64,000 bases of DNA, taken from assembly GCF_009914755.1 (NCBI RefSeq), contig NC_060935.1; one strand, 5' to 3'. The DNA is from the human T2T-CHM13v2.0 reference genome, Homo sapiens. Positions within the stretch are counted from its first letter, which is position 1, and every line of letters begins with the position of its first letter. Made by a program: the position numbers and the translations under genes. Shown one piece after another: positions 20,546 through 21,423 of this stretch. The notes beneath the pieces were generated by a model, which worked only from the letters and a program-made list of their open reading frames with translations, had not been told where the DNA came from and ran no database searches.

Positions 20546-20835
20546 AGAAAATGGGTAGAATGTATAATATCAAAATAATGGCACAACCACTCTGGAAAAC
20601 AGTTTAACAGTTTCGTTTAAAAAAATGCAACTGCCATACCACCTAGCAATTACAGGTTCAGGCATTTCTTCCGGAGAAATACTTAACATTTACAGAGAAA
20701 CCAGTGCACAGATATTTATAGCAGCTTTATTTGTAATAGCTAAAAACTGGAATCAGTCCAGATGTTCTGCAGCAGTTGAATGGTTAAACTATCTGTGGTA
20801 CATACATATCATGGAATACTACTCAACCATAAAAG
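20546..20835 (+). repeat. Copy 1 of a ~290-bp direct duplication (left flank of AluY)
   Basis: AGAAAATGGGTAGAATGTATAATATC...CTCAACCATAAAAG; about 94% identical to 21137-21423 by manual alignment. Confidence 0.97.
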
Positions 20836-21136
20836 GACCGAGAGCAGTGGCTGACGCCTGTAATCCCAGCACTTTCGGAGGCCGAGGCGGGCAGATCACG
20901 AGGTCAGGAGATCGAGACCATCCTGGCTAACACGGTGAAACCCCGTCTCTACTAAAAATACAAAAAAATTAGCCGGGCGTGGTGGCGGGTGCCTGTAGTC
21001 CCAGCTACTCGGGAGGCTGAGTCAGGAGAATGGCACGAACCTGGGGGGCGGAGCTTGCAGTGAGTGGAGATCGCGCCACCGCACTCCAGCCTGGGCGACA
21101 GAGCGAGACTCCGTCTCGGGGGAAAAAAAAAAAAAA
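20836..21136 (+). mobile_element. AluY, full length
   Basis: GATCACGAGGTCAGGAGATCGAGACCATCCTGGCTAACACGG, GAGAATGGC and GGAGCTTGCAG diagnostics; tail GGGGG then A-run. Confidence 0.97.
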
Positions 21137-21423
21137 AGAAAATGGGCAGAATGTATAATATCAAAATAATGGCACAACCGCTCTGGAAAACAGTTTAACA
21201 GTTTCTTTTAAAAAAATGCAACTGCCATGCTACCTAACAATTACAGGTTCAGGCATTTCTCCCCGAGAAATGCTTACATTTACAGTAAGCAGTGCACAGA
21301 TATTTATAGCAGGTTTATTTGTAATAGCTAAAAACTGGAATCAGTCCAGATGTCCTGCAACAGTTGAATGGTTAAACTATCTGTGGTACATACATATCAT
21401 GGAATACTACTCAACCGTAAAAG
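21137..21423 (+). repeat. Copy 2 of the ~290-bp direct duplication (right flank of AluY)
   Basis: AGAAAATGGGCAGAATGTATAATATC...CTCAACCGTAAAAG, after which the L1 continues normally. Confidence 0.97.

What the first reader, a model, noticed from the sequence alone, without database searches (positions are those of the whole stretch)
20546..21423. AluY flanked by a ~290-bp direct repeat: an apparent giant target-site duplication
Seen: 20546-20835 (290 nt) and 21137-21423 (287 nt) align end to end at about 94% (about 15 substitutions and 3 indel bases by hand). Copy 1 ends at the base before the Alu 5' end, and copy 2 begins exactly where the A-tail ends. Copy 1 starts at GATT|AGAAAA, an L1-endonuclease-type TT|AAAA variant. 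Both copies share the same idiosyncratic internal jump relative to the L1 consensus (AAAATGGG.AGAA to TGTATAATATC), so they are not two independent L1s. Known: TPRT TSDs are normally about 7-20 bp, like the 13-17-bp ones elsewhere in this window; much longer ones are rare. Inference: second-strand cleavage or priming occurred about 290 bp from the first nick, perhaps at a pre-existing nick or replication fork. The ~6% divergence between copies is compatible with AluY age. The repeats also allow homologous excision of the Alu plus one copy (about 590 bp), which would restore the empty site.
Basis: partly seen in the sequence, partly recalled or inferred. Interest (0 to 1): 0.8.

Follow-up and report, generated by a model that had tools for sequence, protein, structure and literature searches.

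The report
Alu with a 290-base target duplication
A full-length Alu element sits exactly between two 94%-identical copies of a 290-base piece of an old L1 element, most likely because a single insertion event duplicated about twenty times more target DNA than usual, which is a rare but already known kind of outcome.

Summary
Copy 1 (20546-20835), a full-length AluY-like element with its tail (20836-21136) and copy 2 (21137-21423) abut without spare bases. The copies differ by 16 substitutions and 3 indel bases. In the whole genome each copy is the other's best match (94%; next best 75%).

Both copies carry the same ~200-base internal deletion of the host L1. The flanks continue the L1 colinearly.

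Three results favour one insertion event:
- The left edge is TT|AGAA, an L1-endonuclease-type site found at about 1% of local positions.
- Changes since duplication split 6 to 7 between the copies.
- The per-lineage divergence of the copies (2.8%) matches the Alu's non-CpG divergence from its relatives (2.6-3.9%).

My best reading (0.8) is one target-primed reverse transcription event whose second-strand break lay 290 bases away.

Orthologous primate loci, which I could not reach, would decide.

Large target duplications are already described for L1 in cultured cells and tumours. This is a rare natural Alu member of a known kind.

The parts
20227..20545 (+). Host: old L1 fragment (3' part of ORF2, sense on + strand by recall), upstream of the duplication
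   Evidence: colinear blastn matches to other genomic L1 copies, for example L004 at 20227-20529 and L003 at 20420-20549. The L003 match runs through the 20545/20546 edge.
20544..20549 (-). Inferred first (bottom-strand) nick site. Top strand TT|AGAA, bottom strand 5'-TTCT/AA-3', nick between 20545 and 20546.
   Evidence: This is a one-transition variant of TTAAAA. Such sites occupy 9 of 831 and 7 of 859 positions of the host L1.
20546..20835 (+). Copy 1 of the duplicated target (5' TSD), 290 nt
   Evidence: 94% identical to copy 2; it ends at the base before the Alu.
20549..20577 (+). Junction of the ~150-230-nt internal deletion of the host L1, inside copy 1. The same junction lies in copy 2 at ~21140-21168.
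   Evidence: upstream L1 homology runs up to ~20529-20555 in 5 of 8 other L1 copies; homology resumes at ~20577 in 5 of the 8 (20586-20621 in the other 3), skipping about 150-230 nt of their sequence.
20829..20835 (-). ATAAAAG. The inferred top-strand break lies after G20835. A perfect bottom-strand TTTT/A site has its nick at 20830|20831, 5 nt upstream.
   Evidence: This is the basis both of the 5-nt-TSD rival and of the two-cut variant.
20836..21117 (+). Full-length AluY-like SINE body, 282 nt
   Evidence: 92-96% identity to 39 other scored genomic copies (4594 first-look candidates); 16 of 282 sites differ from the consensus of the 29 nearest copies.
21118..21136 (+). Tail: G5 followed by A14
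21137..21423 (+). Copy 2 of the duplicated target (3' TSD), 287 nt
   Evidence: It begins where the A-tail ends and continues without a break into the downstream L1.
21424..21569 (+). Host L1 fragment downstream of the duplication
   Evidence: single HSPs run from 21168 through 21423/21424 to 21547-21569 (L003, L004, L006, L007, L008).

Best explanation
One L1-ORF2p-driven insertion of an Alu RNA by target-primed reverse transcription (TPRT) produced both the Alu and the duplication. The steps below are marked as read from the sequence or as inferred.

1. The bottom strand was nicked at 5'-TTCT/AA-3' (top TT|AGAA, between 20545 and 20546). Its T-rich 3' end primed reverse transcription on the Alu A-tail. 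That is why the tail is joined to what is now copy 2. The junctions are read directly from the sequence; that an endonuclease nick made them is inferred.

2. The top strand was not broken the usual ~15 nt downstream. It was broken 290 nt downstream, after G20835 in pre-insertion numbering. The position follows from the end of copy 1; the cause is inferred.

3. The 3' end of the completed cDNA joined that distant top-strand 3' end with no filler bases. Fill-in of the two 290-nt single-stranded stretches then gave two copies of the target (inferred, the standard model of TSD formation).

I think the distant break was most likely an independent break rather than the normal ORF2p second cut. It could have been a pre-existing nick or break, possibly on the sister chromatid. 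It could also have been a second ORF2p cut at the perfect TTTT/A site 5 nt upstream of the break point. This part is speculation.

The event dates to roughly the ape/Old World monkey split: 2.8% per lineage, with the rate recalled, not computed here. The two 94%-identical repeats can in principle recombine and remove the Alu plus one copy (588-591 nt).
For: - Exact abutment of copy 1, Alu, tail and copy 2, with no extra bases.
- The left edge of the duplication falls on TT|AGAA. Sites within one transition of TTAAAA are 9 of 831 and 7 of 859 positions in the host L1 and 247 of 63995 in the window. A duplication made by any process other than TPRT has about a 1% chance of starting there.
- The element is full length with an A-tail.
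- There is no independent TSD of normal length. My crude finder reports only AAAAG here. It found a repeat of 10 nt or more for 42 of the other 65 near-full-length Alus, mostly 10-17 nt.
- The copies are each other's best genomic match, and both share the host L1's private internal deletion.
- Removing the Alu and one copy leaves a colinear L1.
- Polarised with 8 other L1 copies, 6 substitutions fall in copy 1 and 7 plus a 2-nt deletion in copy 2; 3 are unresolved.
- Timing: the copies show 16 changes in 574 site-lineages (2.8%). The Alu shows 9 of 232 non-CpG sites changed, or 6 of 232 if three variants shared by 6 or more of the 29 relatives are source variants (Fisher p = 0.50 and 1.0). An Alu half as old is disfavoured (P = 0.006 for 9 changes, 0.11 for 6).
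- Precedent from passages read. L1 TSDs over 100 bp occur in under 10% of HeLa events and up to 5.3 kb in NER-deficient cells (PMC5223499). 1-10-kb tandem duplications at L1 insertions are 'regarded as large TSDs' (bioRxiv 10.1101/2024.12.14.628481). An L1 event with an endonuclease motif bounds a 22.6-Mb tandem duplication (PMC7058536).
Against: - No empty-site or outgroup sequence was available, so the order of events is inferred, not observed.
- AAAAG precedes the Alu and also follows the tail, and AT|AAAA (20829-20834) is itself a good endonuclease site. A 5-nt TSD inside an older tandem duplication therefore fits the letters equally well. Under my reading that match is a coincidence, with a chance of 54 in 1410, about 4%.
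- Giant TSDs were not seen for Alu in the data sets I read. De novo sperm insertions: 0 of 51, all 8-18 nt. Inserts rescued from HeLa: direct repeats of 5-27 nt among 226. Polymorphic insertions: at most 50 nt among 1010. The prior per Alu insertion is therefore low, though several surveys cap the length by design.
- The timing test has little power (6-9 versus 6.5 expected events). It cannot exclude a duplication somewhat older than the Alu.
- The panel of 29 Alus was chosen by similarity to the query, so the split between source variants and later changes is uncertain.
Confidence: 0.8

Rival explanations
1. Two steps. A 288-290-nt segment of the L1 was first duplicated in tandem, with a junction reading ...CCATAAAAG/AAAATGGG... 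and 2-nt microhomology AG. Later an Alu inserted by ordinary TPRT at AT|AAAAG, exactly at that junction, making a 5-nt TSD (AAAAG).
For: - The letters allow it. AAAAG lies before the Alu and after the A-tail, and ATAAAA at 20829-20834 gives a perfect bottom-strand TTTT/A nick site.
- Short tandem duplications exist as polymorphisms: 71 and 88 per long-read genome, up to ~600 bp, mostly in transposable elements.
- The A-rich junction such a duplication creates would be a good endonuclease target.
Against: Several independent coincidences are needed:
- The Alu must land at one particular position of a ~580-nt duplication.
- The TSD must be 5 nt. Full-length Alus are not associated with TSDs of 9 nt or less (abstract and passages of PMC2912911). 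The range was 8-18 nt in 51 of 51 sperm insertions and 5-27 nt with mean 14.0 +/- 3.0 in HeLa.
- The far (left) edge of the earlier duplication must fall by chance on TT|AGAA, about 1% of positions.
- The Alu shows no sign of being younger than the duplication.
Confidence: 0.08
2. Two independent Alus of the same orientation once segregated on different haplotypes. One sat at the A/B edge (TT|AGAA) and one at the B/C edge (AT|AAAAG). An unequal crossover within the Alus joined A-B-Alu(5' part) to Alu(3' part)-tail-B-C. The result is one chimeric Alu between two copies of B.
For: - The product would be letter-for-letter like what is seen, and both edges of B lie at endonuclease-type sites.
- Alu-Alu unequal recombination is a well-known source of duplications (general knowledge; mentioned in the discussion of PMC3415434).
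Against: - It needs two polymorphic insertions 290 nt apart at the same time, a crossover between them in trans, and then fixation of the recombinant.
- The second Alu would still need the atypical 5-nt TSD.
- No flanking Alus lie at the outer edges of the copies. This excludes the common intrachromosomal form: the flanks are L1 sequence.
- There is no internal sign of a chimera, but this is not testable between two near-identical AluY copies.
Confidence: 0.04
3. Endonuclease-independent origin. A replication or repair accident (template switching or break-induced replication) made the tandem duplication, and an Alu cDNA or RNA was captured as filler at the junction.
For: - Insertions at duplication junctions are known from repair-based rearrangements (general knowledge).
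[quoted passage not shown] That model still begins with an ORF2p cut, so it overlaps with my best explanation.
Against: - The element is full length with an A-tail.
- The tail is joined to an endonuclease-type site.
- Both junctions are clean.
- By recall, endonuclease-independent insertions usually lack tails and TSDs and come with deletions. In the Alu rescue study, the inserts lacking cleavage sites and direct repeats were associated with rearrangements.
Confidence: 0.05

Closest known systems
Large target-site duplications of engineered L1 insertions in cultured human cells (HeLa; NER-deficient XPA-, XPC- and XPD- cells), PMC5223499
   Same: Both show a poly(A)-tailed insert made by the L1 machinery and flanked by a direct duplication of over 100 bp of target. 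In both the cause proposed is a second nick far from the first. The paper already proposes loss of the insert by recombination between the long TSDs (passages).
   Different: This case is an Alu mobilised in trans, not an L1. It is a natural insertion in the germline lineage, carried in a human reference-grade assembly, and about 2.8% per lineage old. It is not a de novo event in a repair-deficient or tumour cell line. In the Alu data sets I read, no TSD exceeded 50 nt.
L1-associated tandem duplications in tumours and L1-expressing clones (PMC7058536; bioRxiv 10.1101/2024.12.14.628481)
   Same: Both show a tandem duplication with a polyadenylated retro-insert at the junction and an endonuclease motif at the 3' insertion breakpoint. 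The preprint explicitly equates these with large TSDs.
   Different: The scale differs (1-10 kb and 22.6 Mb versus 290 nt), as do the element (L1 versus Alu) and the setting (somatic versus germline). The proposed routes, sister-chromatid break capture and break-induced replication, are untested here.
Ordinary Alu TPRT insertion with a ~15-nt TSD
   Same: Both show a full-length element, an A-tail, a TT|AAAA-type site at the tail junction, clean junctions, and a direct repeat that begins at the nick.
   Different: The repeat is about 20 times longer than the usual 8-18 nt or median 14-15 nt.
Alu-Alu unequal recombination duplications
   Same: A duplicated segment with an Alu between the two copies.
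   Different: No Alus lie at the outer edges of the duplicated segment. Only a rare interallelic variant remains possible.

Membership tests
L1-ORF2p-mediated (TPRT) Alu insertion | SINE of the Alu family, full length or 5'-truncated, in one piece | tested here: met
   The 282-nt body is 92-96% identical to the 39 other scored genomic copies. It aligns end to end with the consensus of the 29 nearest copies. The subfamily label AluY rests on recalled diagnostic bases; no repeat library was available. The Rfam gathering search gave 0 matches.
L1-ORF2p-mediated (TPRT) Alu insertion | 3' A-rich tail | tested here: met
   G5 plus A14 at 21118-21136.
L1-ORF2p-mediated (TPRT) Alu insertion | Endonuclease consensus (TT|AAAA or a close variant) at the tail-side junction | tested here: met
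   TT|AGAA at 20544-20549, a one-transition variant. The local background frequency is about 1%.
L1-ORF2p-mediated (TPRT) Alu insertion | Direct repeat of target flanking the insert and starting at the nick | tested here: met
   The 290/287-nt repeat starts at the nick and ends at the Alu 5' end.
Large-TSD (over 100 bp) retrotransposition events | The duplication and the insertion arose in one event (empty site = one copy, no insert) | not testable with these tools
   No primate orthologue or human pangenome is available. The indirect tests are compatible: timing and the motif at the left edge.
Large-TSD (over 100 bp) retrotransposition events | No other TSD of ordinary length at the insert's own edges | tested here: inconclusive
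   Only a 5-nt match, AAAAG, is found. It could be chance (54 of 1410 positions) or a very short true TSD.
Alu-Alu NAHR tandem duplication (intrachromosomal) | Alus at both outer edges of the duplicated unit | tested here: not met
   The outer flanks 20227-20545 and 21424-21569 are L1 sequence, colinear with other L1 copies.
Simple tandem duplication that predates the Alu | The duplication is older than the insert | tested here: inconclusive
   The Alu's non-CpG divergence (2.6-3.9%) is not lower than the 2.8% per lineage of the copies. An Alu half as old gives P = 0.006-0.11. A small lag cannot be excluded.

The most novel reading that the evidence does not exclude
Long-TSD Alu insertions may be a real germline class that published surveys miss by design. 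The TSD windows of the surveys I read were capped at 30-50 nt.

In this instance the distant second break may have been made by a second ORF2p cut. The right edge lies 5 nt downstream of a perfect TTTT/A site, so two endonuclease hits 285 nt apart would have cooperated in one insertion.

Such insertions carry long direct repeats. They could be lost precisely by recombination, restoring the empty site. That would make them exceptions to the rule that SINE insertions are irreversible, homoplasy-free markers.
Probability: 0.15. Interest if true: 0.6.

Novelty: new member of a known kind. Interest (0 to 1): 0.4.

Why it matters
How the second strand is cut and joined is the least understood step of L1/Alu integration. 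Large TSDs have been documented mainly in engineered L1 assays, repair-deficient cells and tumours.

A fixed, roughly 20-25-million-year-old Alu with a 290-nt TSD would show that the same aberrant outcome occurs in the primate germline, and in trans-mobilised elements. It would also show that such an insertion can persist despite its recombinogenic repeats.

It points to a cheap genome-wide test on telomere-to-telomere primate assemblies. As a single locus it is an anecdote and changes no model.

Tried and rejected
- Rfam gathering search of 20300-21700 to label the Alu formally gave 0 matches. Alu identity rests instead on the genome search.
- I planned a frequency estimate: how many Alus have long abutting flank repeats, and how common two-copy tandem duplications are. 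It would have used a 200-kb sample. I did not ask again, so there is no genome-wide estimate.
- The only baseline is the sequence already held. There were 69 near-full-length Alu matches: 3 too close to an edge, the target itself, and 65 others. None of the 65 has a long flank repeat abutting both ends. The long flank matches that did appear (for example in L023 and L033) are neighbouring Alus that I had not masked, and they do not abut.
- TRF on the window (period up to 500) shows no other two-copy duplication except two adjacent Alus at 45308-45894. Its period limit would miss the 591-nt spacing of the target.
- The intrachromosomal Alu-Alu recombination model is rejected because there are no outer Alus.
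- I considered a chimeric retrocopy (copy 1 plus Alu reverse-transcribed together). It cannot be told apart from the standard model if the 5' junction was resolved by homology, so it is not listed as a separate rival.
- Assembly artefact is rejected. The copies differ at 16 sites and each continues into a different flank.
I found no paper describing a natural Alu with a TSD over 100 bp. The library lacks most subscription journals, and I opened no supplementary tables (for example Tables S1/S2 of PMC5223499). I therefore do not claim the case is unpublished.
- (papers matched only through the phrase 'bp-long TSDs' or a reference title) gave nothing useful.

Full report
**What is there.** Copy 1 is 20546-20835 (290 nt). 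The Alu body is 20836-21117 (282 nt, + strand, full length). A run of five G (21118-21122) and fourteen A (21123-21136) follows. Copy 2 is 21137-21423 (287 nt).

The copies differ by 16 substitutions and two indel events (1 nt and 2 nt), about 94% identity. Homology begins exactly at A20546/A21137: the bases before are TT in copy 1 and A-tail in copy 2. It ends exactly at G20835/G21423: what follows is the Alu 5' end in copy 1 and L1 sequence in copy 2.

**Not chance, and a local duplication.** I searched the whole 3.1-Gb assembly that holds the window with copy 1 as query. Copy 2 is the best non-self hit (94%, E = 5.1e-120). The other 38 scored hits are other L1 copies at 71-80% identity (2156 first-look candidates, 40 scored).

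I then compared 19900-22400 by blastn with eight of those L1 copies (L003-L010). Upstream L1 homology runs into copy 1 (for example L003 at 20420-20549). In the 5 of 8 copies that show upstream homology it ends at ~20529-20555. It resumes at ~20577 in 5 of the 8 and at 20586-20621 in the other 3, skipping about 150-230 nt of the other element. Copy 2 shows the same jump and then continues in a single alignment across 21423/21424 to ~21550-21569.

So the host is one old L1 fragment with a private internal deletion. The 290-nt segment that contains that deletion is present twice. Removing the Alu and one copy would leave a colinear L1.

**The Alu.** The genome search with the Alu gave 4594 first-look candidates and 40 scored hits, including the element itself; the 39 others are 92-96% identical. 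I aligned the 29 nearest copies that were returned as loci and took their majority consensus. By recall of diagnostic bases it is AluY-like; no repeat library was available to test that.

The window's Alu differs from that consensus at 16 of 282 body positions: 7 in CpG dinucleotides and 9 elsewhere. Three of the 9 are shared by 6 or more of the 29 relatives and may be source-gene variants. The panel was chosen by similarity to the query, so this split is uncertain. An Rfam gathering search gave no match.

**Tests of a single event.**

1. *The left edge.* The duplication starts at TT|AGAA. Hexamers within one transition of TTAAAA make up 9 of 831 and 7 of 859 positions of the host L1 and 247 of 63995 of the window. 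A duplication made by a process unrelated to L1 endonuclease would start at such a site about 1% of the time. In TPRT the TSD must start there, and the A-tail must be joined to the downstream copy, as it is.

2. *Symmetry.* Polarising the differences with the eight other L1 copies puts 6 substitutions in copy 1 and 7 substitutions plus the 2-nt deletion in copy 2. Three are unresolved. This is what is expected of two copies diverging from one moment.

3. *Timing.* The copies carry 16 changes in 574 site-lineages (2.8% per lineage). The Alu carries 9 changes in 232 non-CpG sites, or 6 if the three shared variants are removed (3.9% or 2.6%). Fisher p is 0.50 and 1.0. If the Alu were half as old as the duplication, 9 or more changes would have P = 0.006, and 6 or more P = 0.11. 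The Alu is therefore not detectably younger than the duplication. The test is weak and cannot exclude a short lag.

4. *Baseline.* The window and the fetched loci gave 69 near-full-length Alu matches: 3 too close to an edge, the target itself, and 65 others. None of the 65 has a long flank repeat abutting both ends. My crude TSD finder returned a repeat of 10 nt or more for 42 of them, mostly 10-17 nt.

The five bases before the Alu are AAAAG, and the tail runs into AG of copy 2, so AAAAG also follows the tail. AT|AAAA at 20829-20834 is a perfect bottom-strand TTTT/A site. The letters therefore also fit an ordinary insertion with a 5-nt TSD exactly at the junction of an older tandem duplication.

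I rate this rival at about 0.08 because it needs several coincidences:
- The Alu must land at one position of ~580.
- The TSD must be much shorter than full-length Alus normally have. The range was 8-18 nt in 51 of 51 de novo sperm insertions (PMC12633430, passages). It was 5-27 nt with mean 14.0 +/- 3.0 among 226 rescued HeLa inserts (PMC3415434, passages). Full-length Alus are not associated with TSDs of 9 nt or less (PMC2912911, abstract and passages).
- The far edge of the older duplication must fall on an endonuclease-type site by chance.

Under my preferred reading the AAAAG match is itself a coincidence of about 4% (54 of 1410 host positions would mimic a TSD of 5 nt or more). Alternatively, it marks a second ORF2p cut that supplied the distant break. 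A T|AAAA site lies 3-20 nt upstream of 171 of 1389 host positions, so that hint is weak.

**Other rivals.**
- An interallelic unequal crossover between two independent Alus, one at each edge of the segment, would give the same letters. It needs two nearby polymorphic insertions plus a crossover plus fixation (0.04).
- Capture of Alu cDNA at a repair-made duplication junction is disfavoured by the full length, the tail and the endonuclease-type site (0.05).
- The common intrachromosomal Alu-Alu duplication is excluded because the outer flanks are L1, not Alu.

**Mechanism I commit to (0.8).** A single TPRT event. The bottom strand was nicked at TTCT/AA and primed on the Alu tail. The top strand was broken 290 nt downstream instead of about 15 nt. 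The cDNA end joined that distant 3' end without filler. Fill-in then produced both copies.

The junctions and the motif are read from the sequence. The order of events and the cause of the distant break are inferred. Published proposals for such breaks are:
- a distal unrelated nick from replication or repair when the normal second nick is not made (PMC5223499);
- capture of a 3' overhang of a pre-existing break on the sister chromatid (PMC7058536);

I cannot discriminate among these or the two-cut variant.

**Age.** The copies differ by 5.6%, slightly less than the human-macaque genome divergence as I recall it (about 6.5%). That places the event near or just after the ape/Old World monkey split. 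This rests on recall and is a prediction, not a result.

**Comparison with what is known.** Large TSDs are in print for L1:
- Over 100 bp in under 10% of HeLa events; up to 5.3 kb, median 1495 bp, in NER-deficient cells. The same paper explicitly suggests that recombination between long TSDs may remove such insertions (PMC5223499).
- 1-10-kb tandem duplications 'regarded as large TSDs' in tumours and L1-expressing clones.
- A 22.6-Mb tandem duplication bridged by an L1 with an endonuclease motif.

For Alu I found no TSD above 50 nt in what I read. Several surveys exclude long repeats by design: 5-30 nt in PMC2912911, which says longer TSDs in vivo need further study; overlap up to 30 nt in PMC2836564; a figure capped at 30 nt in the LoMA preprint; and short-read assembly in PMC4666360.

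The locus is therefore a rare natural, trans-mobilised, germline member of a known kind, not a new mechanism. I do not claim it is unpublished. The ten searches listed under Tried and rejected found no such report, but the library is partial and I opened no supplements.

**What could not be done.** No primate orthologue, human pangenome or repeat library was reachable. 

**Verdict.** Novelty: new member of a known kind. Interest: 0.4.

Noticed in passing
window 20836-20846: Four of the first 11 Alu bases differ from the consensus of its 29 nearest relatives, and all four are changes to A (20837, 20841, 20843, 20846). The other 271 positions carry 12 changes. Poisson P = 0.0016, though the stretch is CpG-rich. 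Possible causes are error-prone synthesis or deamination of a long-exposed cDNA 3' end at an aberrant 5' junction, or chance.
   Followed up: partly
window 21118-21122: A run of five G lies between the Alu body and the A14 tail, where the relatives' consensus has A. Two or three of the 29 relatives also have G at the first three of these positions.
   Followed up: no
window 19597-19881 and 20847-21131: The Alu forms an inverted pair with an older minus-strand Alu 965 nt upstream: 285-nt arms, 87% complementary. By recall, close inverted Alu pairs are considered fragile. No consequence is visible here.
   Followed up: no
L008:1373-2092 (another chromosome of the same assembly): An unrelated L1 copy has an independent Alu, with its own 12-nt TSD, next to almost the same L1 position as copy 2's start. 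One 734-nt blastn alignment therefore spans Alu plus L1 at 75% identity. This is probably a coincidence or a favoured A-rich L1 target.
   Followed up: partly
window 20549-20577 (and 21140-21168): The host L1 carries a private internal deletion of about 150-230 nt relative to eight other genomic L1 copies. It predates the duplication and serves as the marker that both copies derive from this locus.
   Followed up: yes
window 45233-45512 and 45558-45828: Two minus-strand Alus lie head to tail. TRF reports them as a 315-nt period, 1.9 copies, 73% match. This looks like an ordinary tandem Alu pair.
   Followed up: no
window 20589-20701 versus 20702-20835: Differences between the copies are uneven: 12 of 16 substitutions and both indels lie in the first 156 nt (binomial P = 0.07). 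This is not significant. It could reflect a gene-conversion tract homogenising the 3' half.
   Followed up: partly
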